DNA of 52,063 nt, from IMG/VR virus record IMGVR_UViG_3300045988_076157, positions 1 to 52,063 of that record, one strand, 5' to 3'. The translations under genes and the position numbers were made by a program. Positions 20,449 to 52,063 of this stretch are shown here, one piece after another; position 1 is the stretch's first letter, and the number at the start of each line of letters is the position of its first letter. Source of the DNA: a virus. Under the pieces are notes generated by a model. The model saw nothing but the letters and a program-made list of their open reading frames with translations. It was not told the DNA's origin and did not search any database.

Positions 20449-22047
20449 TTACAATTCTGGCAAAATTTCCATGAACACACGGATTATAGAGCTTCTGTGG
20501 CCGTCGGATTCCTCAATTTTGTTGATGCGCACTCTCGTACCCGCGTTGAGTAGTGTTTCACCCTCGCCAGTACCGAATGTAGAAATGGACATTATGGAGG
20601 AAGCTTGTGTGCCCTTGGGAGCGTAGAAAACAACCTCGACGTCCCCTCCAAACCCCTTATTCCAATCGGAAGATGTGCTCGTAAAGCCTGTATAAGTTCC
20701 AATAGTTCCCTGGAACATGTCATTCAGAGCCTGAGTAGACATGTTCTCCAGCTTAGTCATGTTCTCAAAGAAGTCACCGTCCATAAAGCCCGCCAAGTCT
20801 CCGAAGTTGGTACCTCTACGCAGTACCAAATCCTTCTCCAGAGAAGCTTTCTTCAGTGCAGATTGACACCGCTGTATATCGCCAGTGTACCAGTCACCAT
20901 ATTTATTGTCAGCAGCCTTTTTGCCCTCCCTTGCAGCGGTACGCAACCAACCATTCATCTTTGTATAGTCACTTCCTGTGTATTTTTTCAAGGAGGTCTT
21001 TTCTGCATCGGTAAAGTTCTCAAAGGCCGACTCTTCCATTTCCAGCATTCCTGACGTAGTTTGACGTTCAAACAGACTTATCCATTCCTTAGAGGAAGGA
21101 ATTTTCTGTACGTTGGTACCGGACTGTACATTGTTCTTGACTTCGGAGGCGATACCTCCCATACTCTCAATCCACTTATCCAAGGACGGGTCAGCTTTAC
21201 CCTCAACCCAGTCAGCTAACTGGTCGGCAATTTCAGTCATACTCTGCGGAATGTATGCCTCAAAGGTACACATGCCGTTAGGGTGGTCAAGAGGGAGACT
21301 GTCTTTAGGAAAGTGTTTACCATCTCGCTCCATACAGACTTCACAAGTACGATTGCCACCAGCAGACAGCCAAATGTAATCCTCAACGAAGGGATTGTTC
21401 TTGGTAGTCCGTACAAAAGCCTGTTGATAGGCGTGAGACACCATCGTACGAGCTAACCGCTGTGCATTGTAGTCTACCTTCTTGGCCGCGCCGGGGTACA
21501 CCTTAGACCAGTCCCAGTCTTTTCTTGCTTCAGGATTTAGATACTTCTCTAAATCCTTGGCTATATCATAGGCGCTCTTGTTCTCTGCTATGCCTTGTGC
21601 TATGATTGTATTTATGTTATACTGAGTCTTCATATGAGTTTTCCAAATGGCACGACTCAAACTCCACTTGCCCTCATAGAGTTGACCGGTGGATACCATT
21701 TTTACAATATCCGCTGGTACAAACCCATAAGCTCCTTGAATACCAAGACCCAGTTTGTTTACAAAGTTAGCATTATCGTCTACAACAGCTTGAGCTGCTG
21801 CTTTCATGTTACTCTTGATTTCTCCATTGAGGGACATCTCTGCTTTCTTTAGTTCTTTGTTGATTTCCTTTTGGAGATCCTCAAGGTATTGTTTGTAAAG
21901 CGGAGAAGAGGGTGTCTTAGGCAGATTCTTAGCTTTCTTAGCAACAGCCTTAGAAGCGTTTTTGTAGATGTCTACAATATGTTTCTGCTGTTGTTGAGTC
22001 AGCTTAACTCTCTCCTGTTCTGCTATATTCAAGCTGAATTTTGCCAT
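20449..22047 (-). CDS. Minor head protein (Phage_Mu_F / SPP1 gp7-like) fused to a C-terminal ADP-ribosyltransferase toxin domain
   Basis: MuF motif ...NRTCEVCMERDGKHFPKDSLPLDHPNGMCTFEAYIP. C-terminal R-S-E ART triad: YTGSDYTKMNGWLR, LVLRRG, GFTSTS and GEGETLL (ExE). Confidence 0.9.
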   Translation of the reverse strand: MAKFSLNIAEQERVKLTQQQQKHIVDIYKNASKAVAKKAKNLPKTPSSPLYKQYLEDLQKEINKELKKAEMSLNGEIKSNMKAAAQAVVDDNANFVNKLGLGIQGAYGFVPADIVKMVSTGQLYEGKWSLSRAIWKTHMKTQYNINTIIAQGIAENKSAYDIAKDLEKYLNPEARKDWDWSKVYPGAAKKVDYNAQRLARTMVSHAYQQAFVRTTKNNPFVEDYIWLSAGGNRTCEVCMERDGKHFPKDSLPLDHPNGMCTFEAYIPQSMTEIADQLADWVEGKADPSLDKWIESMGGIASEVKNNVQSGTNVQKIPSSKEWISLFERQTTSGMLEMEESAFENFTDAEKTSLKKYTGSDYTKMNGWLRTAAREGKKAADNKYGDWYTGDIQRCQSALKKASLEKDLVLRRGTNFGDLAGFMDGDFFENMTKLENMSTQALNDMFQGTIGTYTGFTSTSSDWNKGFGGDVEVVFYAPKGTQASSIMSISTFGTGEGETLLNAGTRVRINKIEESDGHRSSIIRVFMEILPEL

Positions 22048-28240: not shown

Positions 28241-28703
28241 TTTCATCTTAAAATTAGGCGGAATTCCTTGGTTTTCGCCTAATTTCATCTTAAAATTAGG
28301 CGGAATTTTACAAGTTACAAGTTGTTGGTATTTTCCAATACTTTACTCCGTGAAGTAAAGCAAAATTAGGCGAAATCACCCCAAGCAAGTCGTGGTTTCA
28401 AACAAGTTTGCATCTGGCCTAATTTTACACCTTCCTACTTCATTATAGAGAAAAATTTATAAAATAATAGAATAGAGAGAGTATAAAAATGCATATATAA
28501 TAATATCGCCGGAAAATTAGGCGGCCGCAAACCCCACATATTACACGATTTTCACGCCTAATTTACCTATTTTCACTTTTCCCCGTGAAGTAAAAGCCAA
28601 GGATTTTCCGATTTTTCACCCCTTAAAAGCCCGATTTCCGCCTAATTTTCTCCATAATGCGCCTATTTTTCATTTCCCCGTCGAGTAAAAGCCATGATTT
28701 TAC
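28241..28703. repeat. Iteron-like array: at least 7 exact and 2 degenerate AAATTAGGCG sites in both orientations, plus 25-bp and ~36-bp longer repeats
   Basis: Plus orientation at 28251, 28293, 28363 and 28514. Reverse orientation at 28276, 28555 and 28639. Degenerate copies at 28416 and 28660. 25-bp direct repeat at 28241-28265 and 28283-28307. CCGT(G/C)(A/G)AGTAAA(A)G occurs three times (28348, 28583, 28678). Confidence 0.85.
28441..28510. other. Very AT-rich tract in the centre of the iteron array (candidate DNA-unwinding element)
   Basis: CATTATAGAGAAAAATTTATAAAATAATAGAATAGAGAGAGTATAAAAATGCATATATAATAATAT. Confidence 0.45.
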
Positions 28704-28764
28704 AAGCCCAACCCTGTACCCCAAAAATCGCGAAAAAATTTTTTACAAAATTTTGAAAAACCCC

Positions 28765-28793
28765 TTTACTTTTGAGAAAATCGGAGTTATAAT
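28765..28793 (+). promoter_or_regulatory. Consensus phage promoter TTTACT-17-TATAAT (early arm)
   Basis: CCCCTTTACTTTTGAGAAAATCGGAGTTATAATATACCTGTAAGT. Confidence 0.6.
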
Positions 28794-28801
28794 ATACCTG
28801 T

Positions 28802-28950: not shown

Positions 28951-29370
28951 ATGTCTACTACCCGCCGTACCATCGCCAACAGTGTTGACCTGTCCATGAG
29001 AGTCCTCAAGCGCAGATACGAGGACATCGTCGCTTATGGCGAAAACACTACCAACGACCTTCGTATTGCGTACAACATCTACAACCAGATTATGAACATG
29101 TACCGTCTTCTGCGTACAGTTCCTGCATACTCCGACGACCCCGGAGCTGCCGCCCTCAGTTGTGCAGTGAACGAGGCCGTGGAGAAGAACATCCAGGAGA
29201 TTGAGAACATCTTATTCCGCTTCTATGGTATACGCTACTACTACGCAATGGGATATTATGGATGGTATCACGCTGTTGATGAGTCTCTCATTCCCAGATA
29301 CCAGCAGCCGGAGCTCATTCGTAACTTCCCCTGTTCCATCTGCTTCCCTACCAAGGAGGACAATGACTAA
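28951..29370 (+). CDS. Hypothetical early protein (139 aa)
   Basis: RBS AAAGGAGA. First ORF after the early promoter. Confidence 0.7.
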   Translation: MSTTRRTIANSVDLSMRVLKRRYEDIVAYGENTTNDLRIAYNIYNQIMNMYRLLRTVPAYSDDPGAAALSCAVNEAVEKNIQEIENILFRFYGIRYYYAMGYYGWYHAVDESLIPRYQQPELIRNFPCSICFPTKEDND

Positions 29371-29486
29371 TGGACACCACTACTCTCATCTTTGTGATCA
29401 TTGGTGCCGCTACCATGGCCTGTTTGCTCGGTAAACTCATCGCATACTTGGACAATCCCCGCCGGAGAGGAGGTGACCGTACTTGA
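29370..29486 (+). CDS. Small single-TM peptide (38 aa, MDTTTLIFVIIGAATMACLLGKLIAYLDNPRRRGGDRT)
   Basis: Below the track cutoff. RBS AAGGAGGA 9 nt upstream. Its stop overlaps the next start (TTGA). Confidence 0.45.
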   Translation: MDTTTLIFVIIGAATMACLLGKLIAYLDNPRRRGGDRT

Positions 29487-29695
29487 GCACCATATTCCCC
29501 ACAGCTCCGTGTAAGGACTGTCCTCACCGCTCCGTCAAGTGTCACTCTACTTGTCAGTCCTACAAGGACTACATAATCCAAAAGCAGAAGCACACCGTCA
29601 TGAAAGCAGCGTCCTCACCCGACGTGAGTACTGCTGCCTCGAGCAAATTCCTCTCATCCTATTTCGCCCGCAAATCTCGGGGCGGGATAAAGTAA
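29483..29695 (+). CDS. Cys-rich small protein (CKDCPHRSVKCHSTC)
   Basis: TTG start after GGAGAGGAGGTGA. Contains one copy of the 21-bp repeat also found at 1397-1417. Confidence 0.55.
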   Translation: MSTIFPTAPCKDCPHRSVKCHSTCQSYKDYIIQKQKHTVMKAASSPDVSTAASSKFLSSYFARKSRGGIK

Positions 29696-29750
29696 CACTC
29701 CCTCTCTAAAACAGCACCTCGGCCATTTTAACTTGAAAGGATCGTGCCCT

Positions 29751-30032
29751 ATGGATTTTGAACCGATCACCCGTCAAGAATTTGACATCCTATCCTCACC
29801 CCGAAAATACTGCACGCCGCACAGTGTAAAACGACACCTGGAGGACTTCTTGAGCCTCAACTGTTTCGCAGCGAGAGTAACTATTTCTCCTGGAGAGTAC
29901 AAGAACACAGCGTCACTGAGATCATCACTCAGTTCAGCCGTCCAACGATACTATCGCCAGACCATACAGGTGCTCCTCGTCCAGAACGAGGTGTATCTGA
30001 TCAACACGGGATACAAGGAGGAGGCACAATGA
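29751..30032 (+). CDS. Hypothetical protein, tandem paralogue 1
   Basis: ATG at 29751. Shares ...DFL..C.AA+V...LINT with the next gene. Confidence 0.65.
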   Translation: MDFEPITRQEFDILSSPRKYCTPHSVKRHLEDFLSLNCFAARVTISPGEYKNTASLRSSLSSAVQRYYRQTIQVLLVQNEVYLINTGYKEEAQ

Positions 30033-30319
30033 AGTTTACAGATTTCTGTACCGACATAACACAACTACCCAAGCAGAACTACGCACAGCCTCGTCCGTAC
30101 AACTGGACTGATCTGAAGCGGGAGTTGAAGGACTTTCTTAACATAGGGTGTTATGCCGCCAAGGTATCTGAATTTTCTCAACGAGACATCCGATCTGCTA
30201 GAAGAAGCATCGAAAGTTGTGCCAAGAGATTCAATTTCCCTATCCGTGCTGTACACATCAATGGTGAGTTGTGGCTCATCAATACATCAAAGGAGGACAA
30301 CAAACATGCAGATTCTTGA
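30029..30319 (+). CDS. Hypothetical protein, tandem paralogue 2
   Basis: RBS GGAGGAGG. Paralogue of 29751-30032. Confidence 0.7.
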   Translation: MKFTDFCTDITQLPKQNYAQPRPYNWTDLKRELKDFLNIGCYAAKVSEFSQRDIRSARRSIESCAKRFNFPIRAVHINGELWLINTSKEDNKHADS

Positions 30320-30641
30320 GAACATCCAGACCCTGTCGGACTTTCTGACCAAGGAGACCTATCTTATCCTTGAAAACAGATTCCGTAACAAGCCCAGACC
30401 CATCCGTCGCACTGTGTACAAGGTCAGCACCGACATCGTCAAGTACAATAACTTCAGGCTCCCACGCCTCGGTAACGAAACAGTCGTAGCATTCTACGAT
30501 GAGGGTAATGACATTGAGCCGATCATGTTCGTGTCTGACAACTTCTATACCCTGTACCACACCAGGTCCCTGTGGAAGACCATCCAAGAGGACTGTAAGA
30601 TGGCTTACGACCTCAACCACATCCAGCTCATTGATTTTTAA
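30306..30641 (+). CDS. Hypothetical protein (111 aa)
   Basis: ATG at 30306 after AAGGAGGACAACAAAC. Confidence 0.65.
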   Translation: MQILENIQTLSDFLTKETYLILENRFRNKPRPIRRTVYKVSTDIVKYNNFRLPRLGNETVVAFYDEGNDIEPIMFVSDNFYTLYHTRSLWKTIQEDCKMAYDLNHIQLIDF

Positions 30642-30655
30642 GGAAGACAACAAAC

Positions 30656-30964
30656 ATGAAAGCTAAACAGTATGCAAGCGAGTACGTCGCCAAGCTCAAT
30701 CACTCCAAGACCGAAGAAGAAATCAGCCACATCACCGTGGAGTTGCTCATCCAGCTGATGAAGGAGGGTGAAGACCTCAAGCAGAAACGACACGTAAAGT
30801 TCGACAAGGGATTCATCCCTATCTGCAAGGAGCTCAATCAGAAGTGGAACGTCATTGCTGACCTCGTTGAGAAAGAGATGGGTATGGAGGTTCTTAGACC
30901 TAACGCATACAGAGACTTCCTGTTCCTGAAAGTACCCGGTATGGAGGAAGCATGGAGAAAGTGA
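30656..30964 (+). CDS. Hypothetical protein (102 aa)
   Basis: ATG after AAGGAAGACAACAAAC. Confidence 0.7.
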   Translation: MKAKQYASEYVAKLNHSKTEEEISHITVELLIQLMKEGEDLKQKRHVKFDKGFIPICKELNQKWNVIADLVEKEMGMEVLRPNAYRDFLFLKVPGMEEAWRK

Positions 30965-31140
30965 GTGAATCCACCCTGCTGAGATATGGGTCGGTGCTGA
31001 AGAGTAACAACTTCACCACCTCCAGAGGGTTCTACACTCTCCGCATCATCAGTTACGAGGGCCAGTTGTATTTCCACAAGATGAAAGACGGAAATCTGGT
31101 TGAGCTCATCAACCTTATAGAAATGGAGAAACGAGTATGA
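30952..31140 (+). CDS. Hypothetical protein (62 aa)
   Basis: ORF track entry. Start ambiguous (ATG at 30952 or GTG at 30961). Confidence 0.55.
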   Translation: MEKVSESTLLRYGSVLKSNNFTTSRGFYTLRIISYEGQLYFHKMKDGNLVELINLIEMEKRV

Positions 31141-31382
31141 TGACTATAAACATCGGTTACAACAACTTTGTTAACTCAGAGCATGTTGTGGCTATCGTCA
31201 GCCCTGAATCTGCACCCATCAAGCGCATGGTGCAGGAGGCCAAGGACTCTGGTCGTTGTGTTGACGCTACATATGGTCGCCGGACAAGAGCTGTCCTCGT
31301 CATGACCAACGGATCCATTGTGCTGTCGGCTATTCAACCTGCAACCATCATTGATCGTAATGCCCCGAAGGAGGTGGAGTGA
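31137..31382 (+). CDS. remA: RemA/YlzA-family (DUF370) DNA-binding regulator homologue
   Basis: INIGYNNFV...[55 protein letters not shown] aligns closely with B. subtilis RemA (INIGFGN...[34 protein letters not shown]...LSAVQPET). Confidence 0.9.
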   Translation: [81 protein letters not shown]

Positions 31383-31456
31383 TGGTGATAGAAGCCTTGC
31401 TCATTTATGGTATGCTCTTTATGTCAGCAGTATGCATTATTCTAATCTGGAGATAG
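31382..31456 (+). CDS. Possible 24-aa hydrophobic peptide (MVIEALLIYGMLFMSAVCIILIWR)
   Basis: TGATG overlap with the remA stop. GGAGGTGGAG upstream. Below the track cutoff. Confidence 0.3.
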   Translation: MVIEALLIYGMLFMSAVCIILIWR

Positions 31457-31467
31457 GGGGACAAGAA

Positions 31468-31671
31468 ATGGACGCAATCAATGCGTACATCAATACTTAT
31501 CTGGAAGCAGAAAAGCTTGTCAGAGACGTAACTGAAACATTAGGGCTTGACGCGGAACTAATGATGGCGAAAGCGAAGAGACTGGCACGGGAAACAGACC
31601 TTTCAACTGTGGAGGCTCTTCATTTCGTAGTCGGTCAAGTTGCCGGTGGGAAATACAAGGAGGACAAGTGA
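31468..31671 (+). CDS. Hypothetical protein (67 aa) ending YKEDK
   Basis: ATG at 31468, within track ORF 31318-31671. Confidence 0.6.
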   Translation: MDAINAYINTYLEAEKLVRDVTETLGLDAELMMAKAKRLARETDLSTVEALHFVVGQVAGGKYKEDK

Positions 31672-31862
31672 TGAAGCCTATTGCTTTTGATAAGCGTATA
31701 TGTGTCTGTGGAGGAACAAGATTCCACATGATGCCCAAGAAGTTCCTCAACGGTCAAACCGCTGTTGGATTATACTGTTCTGAGTGTGGGCAGTGGCAGA
31801 AGTGGATGAACAAGAGAGACCGTAGTAGATTTGAAGCTCTACAGTATAAGGAGGACAAGTGA
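31671..31862 (+). CDS. Zinc-ribbon protein (CVCGG...CSECG) ending YKEDK
   Basis: ATG after AAGGAGGACAAGTG. Start overlaps the upstream stop (TGATG). Confidence 0.65.
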   Translation: MKPIAFDKRICVCGGTRFHMMPKKFLNGQTAVGLYCSECGQWQKWMNKRDRSRFEALQYKEDK

Positions 31863-32143
31863 TGAAAGAGTATATTGATCGGGCGAAGTACAGAGAAAGG
31901 TTAAGCAACCTCGAAAGCTGGTGCCAAGACCTTAGAAAGCCAGGGCTGACACAAGCGTTGCAGATGTTCGACGAAATCCCCACAGCTGATGTAACAGAGG
32001 TGATACCCTGCAGAGAGTGCATTCACTATGAGCTAGGTGTTTGCCTGAAAATCTACTCAGATGGCAACGCGCACCCAGAGGCGTGGCAGAGCCGCAGGCC
32101 GGAGGACTTCTGCTCCTATGGGGAGAGAAAGGAGGCAGAGTAA
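31862..32143 (+). CDS. Small protein with the CxxCxH[YW] motif (PCRECIHYE ... FCSYG)
   Basis: Identical junction cassette AAGGAGGACAAGTGATGAA. 93 aa. Confidence 0.65.
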   Translation: MKEYIDRAKYRERLSNLESWCQDLRKPGLTQALQMFDEIPTADVTEVIPCRECIHYELGVCLKIYSDGNAHPEAWQSRRPEDFCSYGERKEAE

Positions 32144-32466
32144 TGGATGCCGTGAGGTTTTTGGAAGAACGAAAGAGAATGTTCAAGAATGGAAAACCTA
32201 TACCAAACCTTGACGTTGATATCACTTACGATTCCGAGATGGCAGTTAAGTTCGTCGAATCATGGTCTGCCGCACACCCTCGCAAGACGCGGCAGAGCGT
32301 GTTTCTGGAGCAGTTCCCAAACATCGAGCTTGACAGAAATGGAATAATTAACATTTCACCATGCAGAGTGGACCCGAAACAATATTCATCCAACGGCAAG
32401 AACTGCTGTAAATTTCAGGCTTGCAGTGACTGCCGCCGCGAGTTTTGGAGTCAGGAGGTAGAGTGA
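32143..32466 (+). CDS. Hypothetical Cys-containing protein (107 aa)
   Basis: TAATG coupling. RBS AAAGGAGG. Confidence 0.65.
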   Translation: MDAVRFLEERKRMFKNGKPIPNLDVDITYDSEMAVKFVESWSAAHPRKTRQSVFLEQFPNIELDRNGIINISPCRVDPKQYSSNGKNCCKFQACSDCRREFWSQEVE

Positions 32467-32540
32467 ATGACAACTTCGGTAGAGCTATGGCTTGTCCAAA
32501 CTGCGGCACGAAGATGGACGGAGGAAAGGAGTGAGTTTGT

Positions 32541-32750
32541 GTGACCCGTGGGGAATATATGAGACAGGCTCGGAAACGTGCAGGTCTGACCATTAAACAG
32601 CTTGGTCGTTTATCAGGAGTGGGCTACTCTACAGTCAGTGAGTTGGAAAGAGGTATAAGAAATGACTGTAGAATATCCACCCTGGAGTTACTCGCAGACA
32701 CATTGAGAATCAGCATAGATGAATACATAGGACATACAAGGAGGAAATGA
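32541..32750 (+). CDS. XRE-family helix-turn-helix protein (Cro/CI-type)
   Basis: RKRAGLTIKQLGRLSGVGYSTVSELERG is a canonical HTH_3 pattern. Confidence 0.8.
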   Translation: MTRGEYMRQARKRAGLTIKQLGRLSGVGYSTVSELERGIRNDCRISTLELLADTLRISIDEYIGHTRRK

Positions 32751-32752
32751 TA

Positions 32753-33121
32753 ATGATTAACCGGTTTACTTCCCAGATTCATGCTCTGATGAAAGAGCTG
32801 TGCGTTCCCATGAGAAACAAAGGGTATGACTACATCTTCAAAGCAGTAGAGATCCTGCTTGAGAATCCCAAAATTAGACTGTCTCTTACCAAGGAAGGTG
32901 GAGTGTATGAGCAAGTGGCTACCTACTATGGAGTACGAAACAATACCGTGGAACGCTGTATCCGCACATGCGTAGAAGCTGTGTATCTTGTTGCACCTAC
33001 TGAAACAATTCAGAAAGTGATTGGAGGAAACTTCAACGATTATACCGGCAAAATTACAAACGGTGACTTCTTGTATGCGTTGCGAAATGAGGTGCTGATC
33101 AGAGGAGGTGGTGCTTTGTGA
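32753..33121 (+). CDS. Spo0A C-terminal (effector, DNA-binding) domain-only protein
   Basis: CVPMRNKGYDYIFKAVEILL...LTKEGGVYEQVATYYGVRNNTVERCIRTCVEAVY...GKITNGDFLYAL parallels Spo0A GVPAHIKGYLYLREAI...[32 protein letters not shown]...KPTNSEFIA. There is no receiver domain. Confidence 0.85.
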   Translation: MINRFTSQIHALMKELCVPMRNKGYDYIFKAVEILLENPKIRLSLTKEGGVYEQVATYYGVRNNTVERCIRTCVEAVYLVAPTETIQKVIGGNFNDYTGKITNGDFLYALRNEVLIRGGGAL

Positions 33122-33172: not shown

Positions 33173-33214
33173 GCCCCTGATGGGAGAAATCCTGTCAGGG
33201 GCTTATTCTATTTT
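33173..33214 (+). terminator. Rho-independent terminator ending the first early operon
   Basis: Stem GCCCCTGA / TCAGGGGC followed by TTATTCTATTTT. Confidence 0.7.
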
Positions 33215-33342
33215 GTATAAAATTTCTTAAAGTTCTTGATTTTTCCTCCAAATGCCAAAATTTGATAACTTCTAGTTTGGGTAAAAGACTCAAAAGCCTT
33301 AAATCCTACAGAATCGCTAACTTATTCTTGTAAAACTACAAC

Positions 33343-33371
33343 TTTACTTTTGTAAAAAGACGAGTTATAGT
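33343..33371 (+). promoter_or_regulatory. Consensus phage promoter TTTACT-17-TATAGT
   Basis: CAACTTTACTTTTGTAAAAAGACGAGTTATAGTATGCTTGTAAGT. Confidence 0.6.
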
Positions 33372-33417
33372 ATGCTTGTAAGTTAAAAGTACACCGAACT
33401 TCAAGGAGGATACAGAT

Positions 33418-34766: not shown

Positions 34767-35363
34767 ATGGATTATCAATTTTCTGTCAAAACAATGTCTG
34801 AGTCCCAGCGCATGTTGGCTCTCACAAAAGCCCTTATCATGAGTGGAGTCAGTTTGGATGTGTTTCCTTTGGCGTGGCTCAACGGCACCGATTTCTATCG
34901 TGCTCCCGCATCTAAGCACTTTCATGCTGCCTATTCTGGAGGCCTGTTTGAGCACAGCCTGAATGTAACAGTGAAGTTACTTCAGTTCACCGAAGCCGGT
35001 CTGTGTTCTCCCTGGGGTAGACCCGAAAGCCCCATCATTATTGGTATGCTTCATGACACCACAAAGATCAACCGTTACAAAGCGTACCAGGACATGAACA
35101 CAGTCACTCAGGAAATGGAGACCTTCTACCAGGACAATCCTGAGTATGAGAATCTCGGCGGTCACGGTAACGATTCTGTTCTCAAGCTCAAGAAGGTCAT
35201 GGATCTCATTGAAGAAGAGGAACTGTGTATCAGGTACCACATGGGCGCTTATGAGACAGAGGATTGGGACGGCTTTGATAAAGCTATTCGGAAGTTCCCA
35301 AATGTGCTCTTCACCCACACAGCTGACATGTATGCTTCTAAGTGCATGGAGGTGACTCCATGA
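34767..35363 (+). CDS. HD-domain phosphohydrolase
   Basis: HFHAAYSGGLFEHSL ... MLHDTTK ... GHGNDS fits the HD-superfamily metal-binding pattern. ATG at 34767 after GGAGG. Confidence 0.7.
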   Translation: MDYQFSVKTMSESQRMLALTKALIMSGVSLDVFPLAWLNGTDFYRAPASKHFHAAYSGGLFEHSLNVTVKLLQFTEAGLCSPWGRPESPIIIGMLHDTTKINRYKAYQDMNTVTQEMETFYQDNPEYENLGGHGNDSVLKLKKVMDLIEEEELCIRYHMGAYETEDWDGFDKAIRKFPNVLFTHTADMYASKCMEVTP

Positions 35364-36376
35364 GGAACAAGCCTAAGGATGTTCCATACTGTGGTGTGAG
35401 AAAGGACAGAATTCTCAAAGGAGAGCCTGTGGTAGATCCTGAGATACTCCGGTATCTGTATCAGTTTATTGTAAGACGATACAAGATCCATCTGCGGAAA
35501 GATGTTCAGGGTTTGCCTTCTCCTTGGACAAAGGATCCTGTATTACAAGAATACAGGTTCACCAACGTGAGACGAGAACATGACAGAGAAACCAAGTGGC
35601 TGATCAAGAACATTACAAGCAACCCTGATCTGTCCTATCCAAACAAACTCTTGAACTGTATCTTGTTCCGGTTATACAACAAACATGAGACTTCTGAACT
35701 GATCTCTCAACCTATTCCTTTTGATAAGTATAAGTCTTCAGGGGGGTGGGATCCTGAGTGGTATCGTGCTCTGTTTGAAGCTGCCCAAGCAGAAGATTCT
35801 CACAGGGTGTTCTTCACTGGAGCATTCATTACTGGAGGACTGAAGCGAGCACTGAAATGGTATCTACCCAAGGATGATCCTAAAAACAGCATGGAAATGA
35901 GAATGTTGTGGTTTATGAAAGTCCTCATAGACGATAATGTTGTCAGCAAGATCAAGTCTGCAGTTAACCAAAAAGAGGTGTTCAAAACTCTATGCAGCTA
36001 TGACGGACTTGGGGAGCTTCTGTCTTATCAGATCTTTGTAGATATGACTTACATAGAAGAGTTTCCTTTCAGCGAAAATGAGTTTACTGTAGCAGGTCCT
36101 GGTTGTAAGATAGGACTGAGATTTCTGTTTAAAGACACAGATGGTATGACCCCAGAAGAATGTTTGTTCTGGTTGAGAGATAACCTTGAGTCTATCTTCA
36201 AAAACAAGACCAAGGGGAAATTCAGCTGCGAAGCTCTCTTTACAGATTTGCCTGAGTATGATCGCTGTTTTAATGTCATGAGCTTGGAGAACTGTTTCTG
36301 TGAGTTGAGTAAATATGTGAGAGCTACTAAAGGAACAGGCAGACCCAGAAAGAGATACAAGGAGGTACATGAATGA
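35360..36376 (+). CDS. Helical DNA base-hypermodification-type protein (resembles the 5-hm-pyrimidine DNA kinase helical domain / aGPT-pyrophosphorylase group, tentative)
   Basis: The string PWTKDPVLQEYRFTNVRREHDRETKWL and the later GLGELLSYQIFVDMTY...FTVAGPGCKIGLRFLF recall that group. No P-loop. ATGA overlap with the HD gene. Confidence 0.4.
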   Translation: MRNKPKDVPYCGVRKDRILKGEPVVDPEILRYLYQFIVRRYKIHLRKDVQGLPSPWTKDPVLQEYRFTNVRREHDRETKWLIKNITSNPDLSYPNKLLNCILFRLYNKHETSELISQPIPFDKYKSSGGWDPEWYRALFEAAQAEDSHRVFFTGAFITGGLKRALKWYLPKDDPKNSMEMRMLWFMKVLIDDNVVSKIKSAVNQKEVFKTLCSYDGLGELLSYQIFVDMTYIEEFPFSENEFTVAGPGCKIGLRFLFKDTDGMTPEECLFWLRDNLESIFKNKTKGKFSCEALFTDLPEYDRCFNVMSLENCFCELSKYVRATKGTGRPRKRYKEVHE

Positions 36377-36963
36377 AAACAAGAAATGAGATGAGACGAG
36401 ACAGAACCTTAGCTTGGTTGGTAGTGATTTGCATAATTTTGGTTGCGATTTCAGGAGTAAGTTTGGCGTGCTCTCTTTGGGAAAGCCATAAGAACAATCA
36501 GCCTTTAGATAGAGAGTCTAAGACTGTGTATTCTGAAATAGGAACTCCTCTACGAATTGTCCCCCCTCCCAAGATCATTCTCAGCCCTGATACATCTACT
36601 CCTCAAGCTCCAGAATACGATTATGACTATGTATGTCGTGTAGTTATGGCTGAGACCGGCGGAGAATATAATGAAGATCTGACTCTGGCCGTCTGTCAGG
36701 CTATTATGAATGCGGCTACAGAAAACGATTGGACTCCTGAGGAAGTCTGTATCAATTACAAGTACACAGGACCTCATGACTATGTGAGTGATTTCATACA
36801 AGATATCTGTGACAGAATCTTCCTCTATGGAGAAGTCTATGAGGACTCAGGGAATGCCCAAGTTTTCTACAACCCTTCATATGGACATAGCAGCTATCAT
36901 GAGAGTCAAATCTTTGTGTGTGAGATTGGTGGAGTTCGTTTCTTTGAAAGGGTGGCTGTATGA
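36373..36963 (+). CDS. Membrane-anchored SleB/CwlJ-family cell wall hydrolase (Hydrolase_2)
   Basis: N-terminal TM LAWLVVICIILVAISGVSLA. Catalytic-domain pattern VCRVVMAETGGE...LAVCQAIMNA...QVFYNPS...EIGGVRFF parallels SleB (ARLVYSEARGE...VAAVVLNR...FYNP...IGNHVF). Confidence 0.7.
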   Translation: MKTRNEMRRDRTLAWLVVICIILVAISGVSLACSLWESHKNNQPLDRESKTVYSEIGTPLRIVPPPKIILSPDTSTPQAPEYDYDYVCRVVMAETGGEYNEDLTLAVCQAIMNAATENDWTPEEVCINYKYTGPHDYVSDFIQDICDRIFLYGEVYEDSGNAQVFYNPSYGHSSYHESQIFVCEIGGVRFFERVAV

Positions 36964-37781
36964 TACCTGTATTTGTTCCATCCTACAAGCGTCCCAAGGC
37001 TACCTTACTTGTTCGTTCACTGAACTGGGACTTTCCTCTGTATGTATTTGTACGCAAAGAGGAACTTGAGGACTATTCTTGGATAAAGAAACGTCCTAAT
37101 ACCAAGCTGATAACTTTGAAAAATGTACACGACATCGGTGAGACTCGAGCAGCAATGTTACGATATGCTTCAGTACATGGCATCCCTCGGGTGTTCATGT
37201 TGGATGATGACGTTACACGATTAGATCTGTCCGTATGGGACGAGGAGCGCCGGGTAGTGCGTGCCTCTGGTACGGTACGAGGGTGTCCTGAAAACTGGCA
37301 GGTCGTTCTTGCAGAGTGGGAAAGCTTGTGGGGAGATGAAGCCCTATTTGGTGCTTCTTACAGACCATTCAGTTGGAGCATAAAGAAAAATGCACTCAAT
37401 ACCAATCGGCGTGTTCAACTTCAACAAGCTGTAGGTGTGAATGTGGAGCGCATTGTAGCTGAGGGACTCCGATACTACAGCAATAAAGATGTAGGCAATG
37501 AAGACCTGTTCTTACAACTAGAATGCTATCAACAGGGACTTGAGTGTGTACAGACTCCGATGATACAGTATGATTGTCCCGCTATGGGTGCTGGGAAAGG
37601 AGGCTGTAATGCTTCCGAACTTGGCTCAATTGCTGAGAAGCAACATCGACGCGTGAGGAAATTCCTGAAGGCTTGTGGTAATGACCCCGCAGTCCGTGTA
37701 TCAACTACTCGAAGTGGAGTAGAAAGCATAAAGTTCAACTGGAAAGTGATTGACAAATTGATGGGAGGATCCTATGAGTAA
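36960..37781 (+). CDS. GT-A-like glycosyltransferase (TET/JBP-associated TAGT-like, tentative)
   Basis: IPVFVPSYKRP N-terminus and MLDDDV (DxD) motif. Embedded among nucleotide-modification genes. Confidence 0.45.
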   Translation: MIPVFVPSYKRPKATLLVRSLNWDFPLYVFVRKEELEDYSWIKKRPNTKLITLKNVHDIGETRAAMLRYASVHGIPRVFMLDDDVTRLDLSVWDEERRVVRASGTVRGCPENWQVVLAEWESLWGDEALFGASYRPFSWSIKKNALNTNRRVQLQQAVGVNVERIVAEGLRYYSNKDVGNEDLFLQLECYQQGLECVQTPMIQYDCPAMGAGKGGCNASELGSIAEKQHRRVRKFLKACGNDPAVRVSTTRSGVESIKFNWKVIDKLMGGSYE

Positions 37782-38250
37782 CAAAAGTTGGTTAGATATG
37801 GCCGAAATGTATGCGAAACAGCACAGTGGCTGTAACAAGGTGGCTGTGGGTTGTGCTATTGTATCTTTGACTAGCAACAACGTCTTGGCTTTTGGAGCTA
37901 ACAAAGCCATGCCTGATCTGTGCAAATCCCCCAGGGGTTGTTTGAGGGTTGAGCTGTATGGAGACGACAGCAAGAACCACCGGAACTCTGGTGATTGCCG
38001 AGCTATTCATAGTGAGATTGATGCAATTGCTTCTGCAGCTCGCTATGGGATTTCCTTGAATCGATCCGTGGCATATGTTACACGTTATCCCTGCGAGAGC
38101 TGTGCCAAAGCTTTGATCCAGGCTGGCATCTATGAGGTGTACTATGGAGGTACAGCTGAGATCAGTGATTACACCAGAGCGCTCTTTGAACGATACAATG
38201 TAAGATGTTACCATGTCACAGATTGGCGTGAGGATCTGTCTGACCGATAA
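37774..38250 (+). CDS. dCMP deaminase (ComEB/cytidine-deoxycytidylate deaminase family)
   Basis: Zinc motifs HSEIDAI (HxE) and PCESCAKAL (PCxxC). Confidence 0.85.
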   Translation: MSNKSWLDMAEMYAKQHSGCNKVAVGCAIVSLTSNNVLAFGANKAMPDLCKSPRGCLRVELYGDDSKNHRNSGDCRAIHSEIDAIASAARYGISLNRSVAYVTRYPCESCAKALIQAGIYEVYYGGTAEISDYTRALFERYNVRCYHVTDWREDLSDR

Positions 38251-44091: not shown

Positions 44092-44167
44092 GGGACATTA
44101 GCTCAGTTGGTAGAGCATCTGGCTCATAACCGGGTGGCCACGGGTTCAAGTCCCTTATGTCCCACCA
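44092..44167 (+). tRNA. tRNA with anticodon CAU (elongator Met, or Ile2 if lysidine-modified), CCA encoded
   Basis: Manual cloverleaf: acceptor GGGACAT/ATGTCCC, D-arm GCTC-AGTTGGTA-GAGC, anticodon loop CTCATAA (CAT at 44125-44127), T-loop TTCAAGT, 3' ACCA. One C-T mismatch in the T-stem. The G1-C72 pair argues against an initiator tRNA. Confidence 0.85.
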
Positions 44168-46794: not shown

Positions 46795-47733
46795 ATGCTA
46801 TATGACTACAGCATTCCAGGAGACTGCAAAGAGCTAAGAAGATCTATTTTCACAGAGCTGATGACTCCCGATACAAAAACTGGATACATGGACGGGGAAG
46901 ACTATCAACTCATGAGACCATACGCAAAGGAACGAGCACTTGATCTTGAATCCTGTCTATGGCTGGCCTTTCTGTATGGTATTTCCTACTCATGTACAAC
47001 CACAATGCGGTTTCTTGAAGAATTCCCCACTATTGCAGATGTAACTCCTAAACGAGTCAACGCATTTTGGAAAGACAAGAAAGAATCCCTTTGGTTTAAT
47101 CCCGACAAGAAGTACCTCAAAAACAACGATCAAGTTATACCGGCCATTCGGTCTATCTGTGAATTGTCCCATAAAAACTTGAGTGACTACCTTTGCCCAT
47201 TGTTAGAGCAAGGATTTGATGTTACATACAAGGAAATTACCAAGCGTTGGCGTTTCTTTGGTCCCCATGGAGCATACTTGTTCTTTGATGCCCTGTACGG
47301 TATGCAACCAAGCTGGTATTCTGATCCTGAACACCTGGATTGGAAAAACTGTGGTCAAACTGTTGTGGAAGGTATGGCTCATCTACTTTGTGATGATGAA
47401 GCTATACAAACCAAACAATACAACCTGGAACGATACAATCGAATGCTGGATAAACTGGCCAACAGATTCCATAAACCTAAGATTGTCTTGGAGTCCAATC
47501 TTTGTTTCTTCCGCAAGCTGTTCAAGGGTTCCCGATATTTGGGCTATTATGCAGACCGCAACCTGATGGAGTGTCATGCTACAGCTGACATACTGAGGGA
47601 AGATTGTGGAATAGATGTTTGGAAACTGCGCAAAAAGACTACTCAGGATGATCTACGTGGAGAGATACATGGTTGGGACGCCATACGCAAAGAAAGGTTG
47701 AAATTGTTTTTGACTACAGGAGCTCTATCATGA
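46795..47733 (+). CDS. Helical protein, second candidate DNA base-hypermodification enzyme (aGPT-pyrophosphorylase / glycosylase-like, tentative)
   Basis: WRFFGPHGAYLFFDALYGM...NCGQTVVEGMAHLL resembles the G.G.f.a.q...D..y...GPG...G pattern also present in 35360-36376. ATGA-coupled to the P-loop kinase. Confidence 0.35.
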   Translation: MLYDYSIPGDCKELRRSIFTELMTPDTKTGYMDGEDYQLMRPYAKERALDLESCLWLAFLYGISYSCTTTMRFLEEFPTIADVTPKRVNAFWKDKKESLWFNPDKKYLKNNDQVIPAIRSICELSHKNLSDYLCPLLEQGFDVTYKEITKRWRFFGPHGAYLFFDALYGMQPSWYSDPEHLDWKNCGQTVVEGMAHLLCDDEAIQTKQYNLERYNRMLDKLANRFHKPKIVLESNLCFFRKLFKGSRYLGYYADRNLMECHATADILREDCGIDVWKLRKKTTQDDLRGEIHGWDAIRKERLKLFLTTGALS

Positions 47734-48320
47734 GACTTCTTATCAATATCCGAGGATGCAATGGTGCTGGTAAATCTACCATCCCCATGTCTATGCTAGA
47801 TGATCCAGAGATGTTTATTGAAGAGCTCAAGTACAGTGATGGCAAAAGGATCGGTGCATTCACTGTATTCCCATCCTATGGTTGGGTTGCTCTAGGAACC
47901 TATTTCAACAAGACCGGAGGGCTTGATGGTATTCGCAACATGGAATGTACCAAGACCACCCTCTATGCAGCCTTGGGTCTCTACCCTGACTATGATATCC
48001 TCATGGAAGGGATCCTCTGTAGTACAGTGTTCTCTAGCTATTCTGACCTGTTTCACGAGATAGAGAATCAGACCGGCAGACAGATAATGATTCTATCCCT
48101 TCTTCCGCCCCTCGAGGTCTGTCTAGAGCGCATTCAAACTCGGAATGGAGGTAAACCCATTAAAGAAGACCTCGTGGCAGGAAAGCGAAGTTCTGTGGCA
48201 AGGAGCCACGAAAAGTTCAAGCAAGAAGGATTCACATGTATAAAGGTAGACTCTTCCCGAGTCCCTAGAGAAAGAATGCTCAAAGCATTTCTTCAAACTG
48301 TGGAAAAACATCGGAGGTAA
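47730..48320 (+). CDS. P-loop kinase (nucleotide or DNA 5-hydroxymethyl-pyrimidine kinase candidate)
   Basis: Walker A GCNGAGKST near the N-terminus, 196 aa. Context between hypermodification-type genes. Confidence 0.6.
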   Translation: MRLLINIRGCNGAGKSTIPMSMLDDPEMFIEELKYSDGKRIGAFTVFPSYGWVALGTYFNKTGGLDGIRNMECTKTTLYAALGLYPDYDILMEGILCSTVFSSYSDLFHEIENQTGRQIMILSLLPPLEVCLERIQTRNGGKPIKEDLVAGKRSSVARSHEKFKQEGFTCIKVDSSRVPRERMLKAFLQTVEKHRR

Positions 48321-48322
48321 CT

Positions 48323-48658
48323 ATGGACCAGAAAATGGAAATTCATCAGCATCTCTGTGAGAAGATGCATGACCTGTATGAGCGTAAAAACGCTGACTAT
48401 GGGGATAGCTTTGCTCAGCTCCGCAAGCGATATCCAAACTTCGTGTGTATGCGGCTGTTTGACAAGTTAAACCGACTTGACACCATCATCCAGCCGGGGT
48501 ATGAGTGTAAGGTGTCTGACGAGAAGATTGAGGACACCCTGATGGATATTGCCAACTATGCGATCATGGAGCTGACTGAACGCATCGCTGACAGAAATCC
48601 CCCTATATCTGCAAGCAACCTGTATGCAACTTCTATTGATGCAAAGGAGGTACACTAA
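48323..48658 (+). CDS. DUF1599 (nucleotide modification associated domain 1, MazG-related) protein
   Basis: KNADYGDSF...MRLFDKLNRLDTI...EDTLMDIANYAIM fits the DUF1599 pattern. Confidence 0.7.
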   Translation: MDQKMEIHQHLCEKMHDLYERKNADYGDSFAQLRKRYPNFVCMRLFDKLNRLDTIIQPGYECKVSDEKIEDTLMDIANYAIMELTERIADRNPPISASNLYATSIDAKEVH

Positions 48659-48659
48659 C

Positions 48660-49388
48660 ATGTCTGTATTCATTTTCAATGCACAAACGGTAAATGATGC
48701 TTGGGAGCAGGCATTCGGCGCTCTGGCGATCCAGGCTTCTGAGGGCTTTGCTGACACTTCCCGTGATGGCGGAGTGGTTGGTGAGATCACTGATGCTGTT
48801 TTCTGTATCAAGGATCCTACTCGCAACATTGTGACCAGTCCGATCCGAAAGATGCCCTTGCGCTATGCTGTCGGAGAGTTGGCTTGGTATCTGTCCGGTT
48901 CCAACAAGGTCTCTGATATCAGTCGGTTTGCTAAGAAGTGGGTTGACATCTCTGATGATGGTGAAACCAATAACTCTGCTTATGGGTATCGTATCTTCAC
49001 CAAGTTTGGGTTTGATCAGTGGGAGTATGTGAAGTCTCTCCTGATGAAAGACCCCAATTCTCGTCAGGCAGTCATTCACATCAAGAATGCTGATGATACA
49101 CCCACCAAGGACACTCCCTGCACGGTGTATCTCCAGTTCTTCATCCGCGATGGCAAGTTGAATCTGTCGGTACATATGCGATCCAACGATATTTGGATGG
49201 GTGTGCCTTATGACATGTTCAGCTTTTGCTTCCTGCAGATGAAGATGGCTATGGAGTTAGGTGTTGAGATCGGTGAATACCACCACTACGCTGGGTCTCT
49301 GCACATGTATGCTCGAGATTGGGAGACTGCTCAGAAAACTGTGGGTAGTTGTTCCTGCAAGAAGCTCAAGCGTGAAGGAGTGAACTGA
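48660..49388 (+). CDS. ThyA-fold deoxypyrimidylate C5-(hydroxy)methylase, T4 gp42-like, Asp at the base-specificity position
   Basis: Catalytic Cys154 in TPCTVYLQF. MRSNDIWMGVPYDMF aligns ungapped with E. coli [15 protein letters not shown], so N177 corresponds to Asp185 (GAC at 49212-49214). NSAYGY, DPNSRQ and GSLHMY strings resemble T4 dCMP hydroxymethylase. Confidence 0.8.
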   Translation: MSVFIFNAQTVNDAWEQAFGALAIQASEGFADTSRDGGVVGEITDAVFCIKDPTRNIVTSPIRKMPLRYAVGELAWYLSGSNKVSDISRFAKKWVDISDDGETNNSAYGYRIFTKFGFDQWEYVKSLLMKDPNSRQAVIHIKNADDTPTKDTPCTVYLQFFIRDGKLNLSVHMRSNDIWMGVPYDMFSFCFLQMKMAMELGVEIGEYHHYAGSLHMYARDWETAQKTVGSCSCKKLKREGVN

Positions 49389-52021: not shown

Positions 52022-52063
52022 AGGGAGGTGAGAAAATGAGTCAGCCCTACAGAAAAGGAAACT
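52022..52063. repeat. Second copy of the 42-bp terminal overlap
   Basis: Identical to bases 1-42. Confidence 0.95.

What the first reader, a model, noticed from the sequence alone, without database searches (positions are those of the whole stretch)
32541..33121. Receiver-less Spo0A effector domain encoded by the phage, next to an XRE regulator
The 32753-33121 product aligns along its whole length with the C-terminal DNA-binding/activation domain of Spo0A (KGY.Y...A, TK..Y..VA..Y....N.VER.IR..VE, K.TN.(E/D)F). It has no phosphoacceptor receiver domain. In Bacillus, Spo0A lacking the receiver domain is known to bind 0A boxes independently of phosphorylation. A phage copy could therefore switch Spo0A-regulon genes on or off regardless of the phosphorelay, forcing or blocking sporulation entry, or it could read 0A-like boxes on the phage genome. 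It is translationally coupled (ATGA) to an XRE HTH gene and is the last gene before a strong terminator. Together with RemA (31137), a SleB-like hydrolase (36373) and a sigma region-4 protein (4515), it forms a notable set of host developmental-regulator mimics.
Basis: partly seen in the sequence, partly recalled or inferred. Interest (0 to 1): 0.75.

Follow-up and report, generated by a model that had tools for sequence, protein, structure and literature searches.

The report
Phage-encoded receiver-less Spo0A-like DNA-binding protein
A gut phage carries a small gene for just the DNA-binding half of a Spo0A-like sporulation regulator; the gene is real and under selection, but phage genes of this kind were described in 2023, and this copy is too diverged from true Spo0A to assume it copies the host protein's function.

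Summary
ORF 32753-33121 (122 aa) matches Pfam Spo0A_C over the whole profile (E 8.5e-20). Its AlphaFold model superposes on the Spo0A effector crystal structures (TM 0.79-0.87). It has no receiver domain. It follows a 69-aa XRE HTH gene and precedes a 13-bp-stem terminator. dN/dS among four related phages is 0.07-0.15.

The kind is already published. Schwartz et al. 2023 (mBio) reported receiver-less spo0A in gut phages with the same phosphorelay-bypass hypothesis, and a 2025 review lists it as "not validated".

What I add:
- It is not a recent copy of host spo0A. It is 26-33% identical to 67 genuine Spo0A effector domains, which share at least 44% with each other. It keeps 20 of their 47 near-invariant positions.
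- It keeps the recognition-helix residues (VER.IR..E and K.TN..F). It loses residues of the sigma-A-activating region.
- It belongs to a very large stand-alone family (1351 clusters).
- Canonical 0A boxes are not enriched on this phage or near 28 other phage copies.

Best guess: a constitutive early protein that occupies host 0A-type sites and interferes with Spo0A control. This is unproven.

RemA and the sigma region-4 protein are confirmed; the "SleB-like" gene is not.

The parts
32753..33121 (+). Gene for a 122-aa stand-alone Spo0A_C-fold HTH protein. An alternative ATG at 32747 is probably not used.
   Evidence: Pfam PF08769 E 8.5e-20, whole profile. PDB sequence hits 1fc3 and 1lq1. AF2 pLDDT 91 and Foldseek TM 0.79-0.87 to 1lq1/1fc3. 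dN/dS 0.07-0.15.
32541..32750 (+). Gene for a 69-aa XRE/Cro-like HTH protein, immediately upstream in the same operon.
   Evidence: HTH_3 E 1.5e-12 and HTH_31 E 2.6e-11. 94% and 83% identical in L001 and L003, but replaced by an unrelated 63-aa ORF in L002.
32740..32744 (+). Shine-Dalgarno GGAGG for the Spo0A_C gene, inside the 3' end of the XRE gene.
   Evidence: Read directly from the sequence: 8 nt to ATG 32753 and 2 nt to ATG 32747.
33173..33212 (+). Intrinsic terminator closing the early operon.
   Evidence: 13-pair stem with 8 GC pairs, 4-nt loop and T-rich tail. Conserved in L001.
28763..28795 (+). Sigma-A-type promoter block (CTTTACTTTT-N-GAGTTATAAT). It probably drives the early operon 28951-33121 that ends with XRE and Spo0A_C.
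   Evidence: One of 8 copies genome-wide against 0.9 expected, each oriented with its operon. Assignment of this operon to this promoter is inferred.
33341..33373 (+). Second copy of the same promoter block, directly after the terminator. It starts the replication and DNA-modification operon.
   Evidence: (repeat D1).
31137..31382 (+). RemA-like gene in the same early operon.
   Evidence: PF04025 E 5.7e-32. Present in all close relatives. It is directly upstream of the Spo0A_C gene in L166, the contig of the nearest distinct relative P0015.
28252..28668 (.). Array of 9 AAAATTAGGCG repeats in both orientations around an AT-rich core (28430-28519). This is context only; a link to the Spo0A_C protein is not established.
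   Evidence: All 9 hits with at most 1 mismatch that lie in this region are confined to this 417-bp stretch. GC content of the core is 0.22. The repeat variant follows the TerS variant, not the Spo0A_C variant, in relatives.

Best explanation
The gene encodes a functional, stand-alone DNA-binding protein with the six-helix Spo0A effector fold. It belongs to a very large, old family of receiver-less Spo0A_C proteins carried by phages, other mobile elements and Bacillota chromosomes.

In this apparently virulent 52-kb gut phage it is the last gene of the first plus-strand operon. It is transcribed from a host sigma-A-type promoter together with a RemA-like protein and a small XRE protein (inferred). 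Because it has no receiver domain, its DNA binding is constitutive (inferred).

The only part of Spo0A that it and its whole family keep nearly invariant is the DNA-reading head (VER.IR..E helix and K.TN..F loop). I therefore think it most likely recognises 0A-type sites with a G-N-C-G core. Such sites are not enriched on phage DNA, so the targets would lie mainly in the host chromosome.

The residues of Spo0A's sigma-A-activating surface are not kept. The likeliest action is therefore occupancy or competition at Spo0A-controlled promoters, and possibly at origin sites. That would uncouple the host's stationary-phase and sporulation decision from the phosphorelay during infection, more likely blocking than forcing spore entry.

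Shown here: domain identity, fold, absence of a receiver, purifying selection, operon position and degree of divergence. Inferred: DNA specificity, host targets and the direction of the effect.
For: Identity and fold.

Functional gene: dN/dS 0.07-0.15 across four phages. Length and start are conserved.

Reading head conserved family-wide: E213, R214 and R217 are kept in 96-98% of 112 stand-alone relatives whose overall identity to the window protein is about 34%. That pattern fits a shared, conserved DNA target.

Phage DNA is not that target for canonical boxes:
- Window: TGTCGAA 3 against 6.7 expected; TGNCGAA 17 against 23.
- 28 distinct phage loci: 32 against 30.5, and 141 against 125.

Accessory, movable cassette: related phage L158 has a primase-helicase 72% identical to the window's, but carries a 27%-identical Spo0A_C at a different position. 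The window genome is also a mosaic of L001-like and L002-like modules.

Co-carried with a canonical RemA-like regulator.

Literature: receiver-less spo0A is enriched in phages of spore-formers (PMC10294663). PF08769 is enriched on gut Firmicutes mobile elements (PMC6907783). An isolated Spo0A DNA-binding domain binds legitimate targets without phosphorylation (PMC3485338).
Against: - No binding or expression data exist; a 2025 review lists phage spo0A as 'not validated'.
- The protein is only 26-33% identical to genuine effector domains and has lost 27 of 47 near-invariant positions, including several next to the recognition helix (S210N, R211T, T207V, T208R, H218T). Its specificity may therefore differ from TGNCGAA.
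- The host is unknown. No close relative was found in 185,579 species genomes, so it is not shown that the host sporulates.
- Homologues in other phages sit inside replication and recombination modules or upstream of the terminase genes. That placement would equally suit a phage-intrinsic regulator.
- The roles I assign to E213/R214/R217 (base contacts) and to residues 227-240 (sigma-A activation) come from my memory of Zhao et al. 2002 and earlier genetics. I could not re-read those sources here.
Confidence: 0.4

Rival explanations
1. Phage-intrinsic regulator or origin-binding protein. The Spo0A-fold domain has been taken over by phages as an ordinary early DNA-binding factor. It would act on the phage's own control region, for example the TAG(G/T)CG-core repeats flanking the AT-rich core at 28252-28668. 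It would control the early/late switch, replication or packaging, and have nothing to do with sporulation.
For: - It is the last gene of the early operon, at the boundary with the replication module.
- In other phages the homologue lies between SSB, AAA ATPase, primase or HMUDK genes, or two genes upstream of TerS/TerL.
- The control region carries 9 repeats found nowhere else in the genome.
- Their core AGGCG(G/A)A / AGTCGGA keeps G2, C4 and G5 of the 0A box. The core is shared by relatives whose flanking repeat sequence differs.
- PHROGs places the protein in families of unknown function.
Against: - The repeat variant follows TerS, RemA and DUF2786 similarity (window close to L002), not Spo0A_C similarity (window 97% to L001, which has the other variant).
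- With only two variants this is weak evidence, but it points to another binder (TerS/pac, RemA-like protein or the initiator).
- A phage-specific operator reader would be expected to diversify its recognition helix, yet that helix is the most conserved part of the family.
- All eight operon promoters are of one host-like type, so no class-specific activator is called for.
Confidence: 0.25
2. Anti-silencing competitor. The protein displaces or pre-empts host Spo0A~P on phage DNA, to prevent the phi29/Nf-type Spo0A-mediated shut-down and spore entrapment of the phage genome.
For: Host Spo0A represses phi29-family phages through 0A boxes (PMC2731898, listed; PMC12991052). The window protein keeps the reading head but not the activation surface.
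Against: The phage has only 3 perfect 0A boxes, fewer than expected and all inside coding regions (1191, 17451, 30800). None lies at the eight promoters. There is therefore little for host Spo0A to bind in the first place.
Confidence: 0.08
3. Decaying or non-functional fragment of a captured host spo0A gene.
For: It covers only the C-terminal half of Spo0A.
Against: - dN/dS is 0.07-0.15, with dS up to about 1.5-1.7.
- The 122-aa length, start codon and SD are conserved.
- The fold is predicted with confidence.
- Identity to any genuine Spo0A is far below the genuine range, so it is not a recent fragment.
- More than 1300 clusters of relatives were found, and most of the best hits are stand-alone proteins.
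Confidence: 0.02

Closest known systems
Truncated, receiver-less spo0A homologues of human-gut phages (Schwartz et al. 2023, mBio, PMC10294663)
   Same: Phage-encoded, effector domain only, from gut metagenomes. The same hypothesis of phosphorelay-independent control of sporulation. Not experimentally validated.
   Different: The published set was found through KEGG spo0A (K07699) annotation. The window protein is a separate small lineage: only 4 clusters at 86% identity or more, and the next relative is at about 40%. It is more diverged from genuine Spo0A than the median stand-alone relative, keeping 20 conserved positions against a median of 29 out of 47. The host is unknown.
Spo0A effector (C-terminal) domain of Bacillus/Geobacillus, PDB 1LQ1 and 1FC3
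   Same: The same six-helix fold, TM 0.79-0.87. Retained: V212, E213, R214, I216, R217, E221, K246, T248, N249, F252, G172, Y175 and Y198.
   Different: 23-25% identity in the structural alignment. There is no receiver domain. Sigma-A-activating-region positions are changed (G227A, F236I, R226V, W224Y), as are residues flanking the recognition helix (S210N, R211T, H218T).
Constitutively active Spo0A forms in B. subtilis (isolated C-terminal domain; sad67-type deletions)
   Same: A Spo0A DNA-binding domain freed from the receiver binds legitimate targets without phosphorylation (stated in PMC3485338).
   Different: Those are the genuine effector domain with an intact activation surface. The phage protein is a distant paralogue, so activation cannot be assumed.
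Phage-encoded sigF/sigG-like sigma factors (Schwartz et al. 2022, mSphere, as cited in PMC10294663)
   Same: Phage copies of sporulation transcription regulators proposed to derail host dormancy.
   Different: A different protein family. Those were tested by expression in B. subtilis and reduced spore yield by up to 99% (as summarised). Nothing comparable exists for phage Spo0A_C.
Pfam PF08769 stand-alone and tandem Spo0A_C proteins on mobile elements and chromosomes of gut Firmicutes (Jiang et al. 2019, PMC6907783)
   Same: Same domain family. Its enrichment on mobile elements has been noted.
   Different: That paper gives only the enrichment statistic. The tandem proteins with 2-8 domains seen here are, as far as I found, uncharacterised.

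Membership tests
Pfam Spo0A_C (PF08769) domain family | Profile match above the curated gathering score over most of the model | tested here: met
   71.1 bits against a cutoff of 25, E 8.5e-20, profile positions 1-102 of 104.
Pfam Spo0A_C (PF08769) domain family | Six-helix effector fold containing the HTH | tested here: met
   AF2 pLDDT 91 with six helices. The only significant PDB fold matches are 1lq1 and 1fc3, TM 0.72-0.87.
Pfam Spo0A_C (PF08769) domain family | Conserved recognition-helix signature (V-E-R-x-I-R-x-x-x-E) and K-x-T-N-x-x-F motif | tested here: met
   NTVERCIRTCVE and GKITNGDF. All of V212, E213, R214, I216, R217, E221, K246, T248, N249 and F252 are kept.
Spo0A proper (orthologue of the sporulation master regulator) | N-terminal phosphoacceptor receiver domain (Response_reg with the D56 site) | tested here: not met
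   The 122-aa protein starts at effector helix A. The upstream ORF is an XRE HTH protein. By contrast, 10 of 13 hits of about 250 aa carry Response_reg.
Spo0A proper (orthologue of the sporulation master regulator) | Effector-domain sequence within the range of genuine Spo0A proteins | tested here: not met
   A panel of 67 genuine full-length Spo0A shows pairwise identity of at least 44%, median 67%. The window protein is 26-33% identical to the panel. It keeps 20 of 47 near-invariant columns, against at least 41 in every genuine protein. Pfam score is 71 bits against about 150 bits for a genuine Spo0A.
Spo0A proper (orthologue of the sporulation master regulator) | Sigma-A-activating region residues (B. 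subtilis 227-240; roles recalled from the literature) | tested here: not met
   G227A and F236I, plus neighbouring R226V and W224Y. F236 is kept in 89% of stand-alone relatives but not here.
Spo0A proper (orthologue of the sporulation master regulator) | Specific binding to the 0A box TGNCGAA and control of spoIIA/spoIIE/spoIIG/abrB-type promoters | not testable with these tools
   Needs EMSA, ChIP-seq or reporter assays. Only residue conservation could be examined here.
Phage-carried truncated spo0A (Schwartz et al. 2023) | Encoded on a bona fide phage genome | tested here: met
   Terminase, portal, major capsid, tape measure and tail genes. DNA polymerase A and D5-type primase-helicase. A 42-nt terminal overlap indicates a closed 52,021-bp genome.
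Phage-carried truncated spo0A (Schwartz et al. 2023) | Effector domain only, aligning to the C-terminal part of bacterial Spo0A | tested here: met
Phage-carried truncated spo0A (Schwartz et al. 2023) | Phage infects a spore-forming host | tested here: inconclusive
   No close homologue or prophage copy in 185,579 species genomes. Only one IMG/VR relative. The host is inferred to be a gut member of the Bacillota only from gene content (RemA-like, Spo0A_C, sigma region 4) and from the sample types.

The most novel reading that the evidence does not exclude
The phage uses its Spo0A-fold protein on itself. On this reading, the conserved VER.IR reading head recognises the 0A-like TAG(G/T)CG cores of the nine repeats. 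These repeats flank an AT-rich core in the divergent control region (28252-28668), which looks like an origin. The protein would then be an origin or switch factor derived from the Spo0A effector domain. Such a factor could also let host Spo0A~P and the phage protein compete for the same sites, tying phage replication or packaging to the host's sporulation state.
Probability: 0.12. Interest if true: 0.6.

Novelty: new member of a known kind. Interest (0 to 1): 0.3.

Why it matters
Sporulation shelters gut Bacillota from phages and drives their transmission between hosts. A phage protein that occupies Spo0A sites regardless of the phosphorelay would be a direct viral lever on that decision. The concept is published but untested.

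This window offers a clean candidate for testing: a complete genome, a short gene under strong purifying selection, and defined promoter and terminator.

The analysis also adds a caution for the field. Many phage 'spo0A' genes are members of an old, highly diverged stand-alone family. These keep the DNA-reading head of Spo0A but not its activation surface. They should not be annotated or modelled as constitutively active Spo0A without binding data.

Tried and rejected
1. Canonical 0A boxes on the phage. TGTCGAA and TGNCGAA are at or below expectation in the window and in 28 other Spo0A_C-bearing phage loci. I rejected them as phage targets.

2. The AAAATTAGGCG repeat array as the Spo0A_C binding site. 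I followed it into three relatives. The core is shared, but the repeat variant tracks TerS, RemA and DUF2786 rather than Spo0A_C. I kept it only as a low-probability reading.

3. The XRE-Spo0A_C pair as a conserved two-gene module. Rejected. The XRE is replaced in L002, and the neighbours in other phages are AntA, SSB, HMUDK_hel and AAA ATPases.

4. Host identification. The single-protein scan of genome contigs found nothing. The profile scan returned mostly genuine Spo0A genes at 33% identity or less. IMG/VR held only the one contig already known. The phage GenBank collection gave four unannotated human-faecal contigs at 24-29% identity and no DNA-level relative.

5. Retrieving the residue-level DNA contacts from Zhao et al. 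2002. The paper is not held, and open papers give no residue list. Those residue roles are therefore marked as recalled from memory.

6. Rfam scan of the window. It found only the tRNA-Met.

7. The first profile-based locus search failed because the alignment was too diverse. I repeated it with 10 sequences.

8. A lysogeny module. No integrase or recombinase family was hit among the ORFs scanned. 'Virulent' remains an inference, because not every small ORF was scanned.

Full report
**What is there**

The window is a complete phage genome. Its first 42 nt repeat at its end, giving a closed 52,021-bp circle.
- The minus strand from about 27984 down to about 1658 carries the late genes: small and large terminase, portal, head morphogenesis protein, major capsid, tape measure, tail proteins and an endolysin-like protein. 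It also carries a 76-aa sigma-70 region-4 protein at 4515-4745.
- The plus strand from 28951 through the window end to about 1382 carries a block of small early genes, then replication and DNA-modification genes. These include DUF2786, an HD protein, a 5-hmdU DNA kinase helical domain, TAGT glycosyltransferase, dCMP deaminase, a D5-type primase-helicase, DNA polymerase A, a PD-(D/E)XK nuclease, AAA_24, a second HMUDK domain, a thymidylate-synthase-like protein and an SNF2 helicase.
- No integrase or recombinase family was hit among the ORFs scanned, so the phage is probably virulent. This is an inference.

**Checking the observation**

ORF 32753-33121 (122 aa; an in-frame ATG also exists at 32747) matches Pfam Spo0A_C at E 8.5e-20 and 71 bits, across profile positions 1-102 of 104. 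Against PDB sequences it hits only the Spo0A effector domains 1fc3 and 1lq1. An AlphaFold2 model built on 30 relatives has pLDDT 91 and six helices. Its only significant PDB fold matches are those two entries, TM 0.72-0.87.

The upstream ORF 32541-32750 is an XRE HTH protein. A hairpin of 13 pairs with 8 GC pairs and a T-rich tail lies at 33173-33202. There is no receiver domain, and all four close homologue clusters are also 122 aa.

The gene is under strong purifying selection. dN/dS is 0.07-0.15 among four phages, with dS up to about 1.7.

Four peripheral details need correction or comment:
- The likely start is ATG 32753, which lies 8 nt from the GGAGG. The ATG in the ATGA overlap lies only 2 nt from it.
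- The RemA-like gene is real, E 5.7e-32.
- The sigma region-4 gene is real but lies on the minus strand.
- The 'SleB-like hydrolase' at 36373 has no Pfam hit and matches only a PHROG of unknown function.

**Operon context**

Eight copies of a promoter block, (G/A)CTTTACTTTT-N10-11-GAGTTATAAT, occur in the genome against 0.9 expected. Each points along its own operon, four on each strand. One copy at 28763 precedes the early gene block. The next, at 33341, sits just after the terminator that follows the Spo0A_C gene.

The XRE and Spo0A_C genes are therefore the last genes of the first plus-strand transcription unit, presumably read by host sigma-A RNA polymerase. This is inferred.

**It is not a copy of host Spo0A**

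An exhaustive HMMER search of 1.84 billion representative proteins found 1351 relatives at E ≤ 1e-3. Only one, its own cluster, reached E ≤ 1e-30 (97% identical); the next-best hits are 40-42% identical at most. The best hits are mostly stand-alone proteins of 110-190 aa, tandem proteins with 2-8 Spo0A_C domains, and a minority of full-length Spo0A.

A pattern scan of one genome per species returned 80 loci. About 67 of these are ordinary full-length Spo0A genes from diverse Bacillota. I used them as a reference panel:
- Genuine effector domains are at least 44% identical to each other, median 67%. The phage protein is 26-33% identical to them.
- Of 47 columns that are at least 90% conserved in the panel, every genuine protein keeps at least 41. 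Stand-alone relatives keep a median of 29. The phage protein keeps 20.

The pattern of kept and lost positions is informative:
- Kept: the fold core (G172, Y175, Y198, A202), the recognition helix (V212, E213, R214, I216, R217, E221) and the K246/T248/N249/F252 motif.
- Lost: S210N, R211T, T207V, T208R and H218T around the helix, plus W224Y, R226V, G227A and F236I.

From my memory of the 1LQ1 paper and of spo0A genetics, E213, R214 and R217 make the base contacts to G2, C4 and G5 of TGNCGAA, and residues 227-240 form the sigma-A-activating region. I could not re-read those sources here.

**Where could it bind?**

Canonical 0A boxes are not enriched:
- Window: TGTCGAA 3 against 6.7 expected; TGNCGAA 17 against 23.
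- 28 distinct 10-kb phage loci carrying a Spo0A_C gene: 32 against 30.5, and 141 against 125.

The divergent control region between the terminase and early genes holds nine AAAATTAGGCG repeats, found nowhere else in the genome. They flank an AT-rich core with GC 0.22. Their core, AGGCG(G/A)A, resembles a 0A box at G2, C4 and G5.

I followed this array into relatives:
- L002 has the same repeats.
- L001 and L003 have AAAAATAG(T/G)CGGAA instead.

The genomes are mosaics. The window resembles L002 for TerS, RemA, DUF2786 and the modification genes. It resembles L001 for the first early gene, XRE and Spo0A_C. The repeat variant therefore travels with TerS and its neighbours, not with Spo0A_C.

**Comparative context**

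In IMG/VR, all relatives examined are stand-alone proteins of 113-213 aa, except one 399-aa ORF. Their neighbours vary:
- AntA - Spo0A_C - x - SSB - AAA ATPase, in a very common phage group of about 60 kb.
- SSB - Spo0A_C - AAA ATPase.
- Two genes upstream of the terminase genes.
- HMUDK_hel - Spo0A_C - dCMP deaminase - x - D5 primase-helicase, in L158.

The L158 primase-helicase is 72% identical to the window's, yet its Spo0A_C is only 27% identical and sits at a different position.

The XRE neighbour is absent from relative L002. A RemA-like gene lies directly upstream of the nearest distinct relative, P0015 at about 40% identity, but it is absent from the other phage loci. The gene thus behaves as a movable accessory cassette inside early regions.

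**Most likely mechanism**

A family whose members differ at two-thirds of their positions, yet keep the Spo0A reading head at 96-98%, probably reads a common and conserved DNA element. In Bacillota, that element is the 0A-type box of the host.

With no receiver domain, binding would be constitutive. With the activation-surface residues changed, simple occupancy or competition seems more likely than Spo0A-like activation. My best explanation (confidence 0.4) is an early, constitutive 0A-site binder that disconnects the host's Spo0A programme from the phosphorelay during infection, probably holding the cell out of sporulation.

The main rival (0.25) is a phage-intrinsic early regulator or origin protein. 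Minor rivals are an anti-silencing competitor on phage DNA (0.08) and a dead fragment (0.02, contradicted by the selection data).

**Novelty**

Schwartz et al. 2023 (PMC10294663) reported that gut-phage spo0A homologues are truncated to the effector domain. They proposed that these homologues bypass host signals. Jiang et al. 2019 noted that PF08769 is enriched on gut Firmicutes mobile elements. BFVD holds gut-virome proteins already annotated 'Spo0A C terminal'. A 2025 review lists phage spo0A as 'not validated'.

This is therefore a new, rather isolated member of a known kind. The useful additions are the quantified distance from genuine Spo0A, the retained-head/lost-activation-surface pattern, the negative 0A-box scans and the operon map.

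Noticed in passing
window 1-42 and 52022-52063: The first 42 nt are identical to the last 42 nt. The window is therefore a closed circular assembly of a complete 52,021-bp phage genome. The plus-strand gene arm runs across the window ends.
   Followed up: yes
window 5611, 19277, 20432, 28083 (minus strand); 28763, 33341, 43371, 51976 (plus strand): Eight copies of one promoter block, (G/A)CTTTACTTTT-N10-11-GAGTTATAAT, against 0.9 expected. Each points along its operon, on both the early and late arms, so there is no obvious separate late-promoter class. Several are preceded by A/T-rich palindromes such as CAAAATTTTG and TTGAAAATTTTCAA, which could be UP elements or operators for the small XRE protein.
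   Followed up: partly
window 28252-28668: An origin-like or pac-like control region. Nine AAAATTAGGCG repeats, five to the left (mostly plus orientation) and four to the right (mostly minus), surround an AT-rich core at 28430-28519 (GC 0.22). Additional CCGTGAAGTAAA(A)GC repeats are present. Relatives L001 and L003 carry AAAAATAG(T/G)CGGAA repeats instead, and the repeat variant follows the TerS variant.
   Followed up: partly
window 35342-38250 and 47673-49388: A thymidine hypermodification gene set: 5-hmdU DNA kinase helical domain (35342), an unknown 196-aa ORF (36373), TET-associated glycosyltransferase TAGT (36960), dCMP deaminase (37774), a second HMUDK domain (47673) and a thymidylate-synthase-like protein (48624). 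The phage DNA is probably hypermodified at T, which would matter for any protein reading T-containing sites. HMUDK_hel and TAGT are only 60-66% identical to those of L001, although neighbouring genes are about 95% identical.
   Followed up: no
Its position suggests a role in the DNA-modification pathway.
   Followed up: partly
window 31137-31382; L166 281-517: A canonical RemA-like protein (E 5.7e-32, whole profile) sits in the same early operon. No PHROG family matches it. A RemA-like gene is also directly upstream of the nearest distinct Spo0A_C relative, P0015 at about 40% identity. It is absent from the other Spo0A_C phage loci scanned.
   Followed up: partly
window 4515-4745 (minus strand): A 76-aa protein consisting only of sigma-70 region 4 (PF04545 E 2e-8; phrog_36 'transcriptional regulator'), located among the late and lysis-side genes. 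It could be a -35-element-binding factor, given the shared CTTTACTTTT -35 block.
   Followed up: no
P0005-P0012, P0019, P0020, P0007; L165 6001-8922: Proteins made of 2-8 tandem Spo0A_C domains exist, for example P0007 with 959 aa and 8 domains. Two such paralogues (454 and 462 aa) lie side by side in a bacterial MAG chromosome among housekeeping genes (uvrC, glmS), with bofA nearby. I found no description of these in the literature searched.
   Followed up: partly
L001 18566-20369: In relative L001 the DNA polymerase A gene carries intein and HNH insertions. The product is at least 862 aa, against 573 aa in the window. L003 has a GIY-YIG/NUMOD3 homing endonuclease next to the large terminase gene.
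   Followed up: no
window 20449-22047 (minus strand): The head-morphogenesis protein (SPP1 gp7-like) has a C-terminal region (residues 346-528) that matches an ADP-ribosyltransferase exoenzyme toxin PHROG at E 8.5e-8.
   Followed up: no
window 44092-44167: A single tRNA-Met (CAT) gene lies between the DNA polymerase gene and the PD-(D/E)XK nuclease gene.
   Followed up: no
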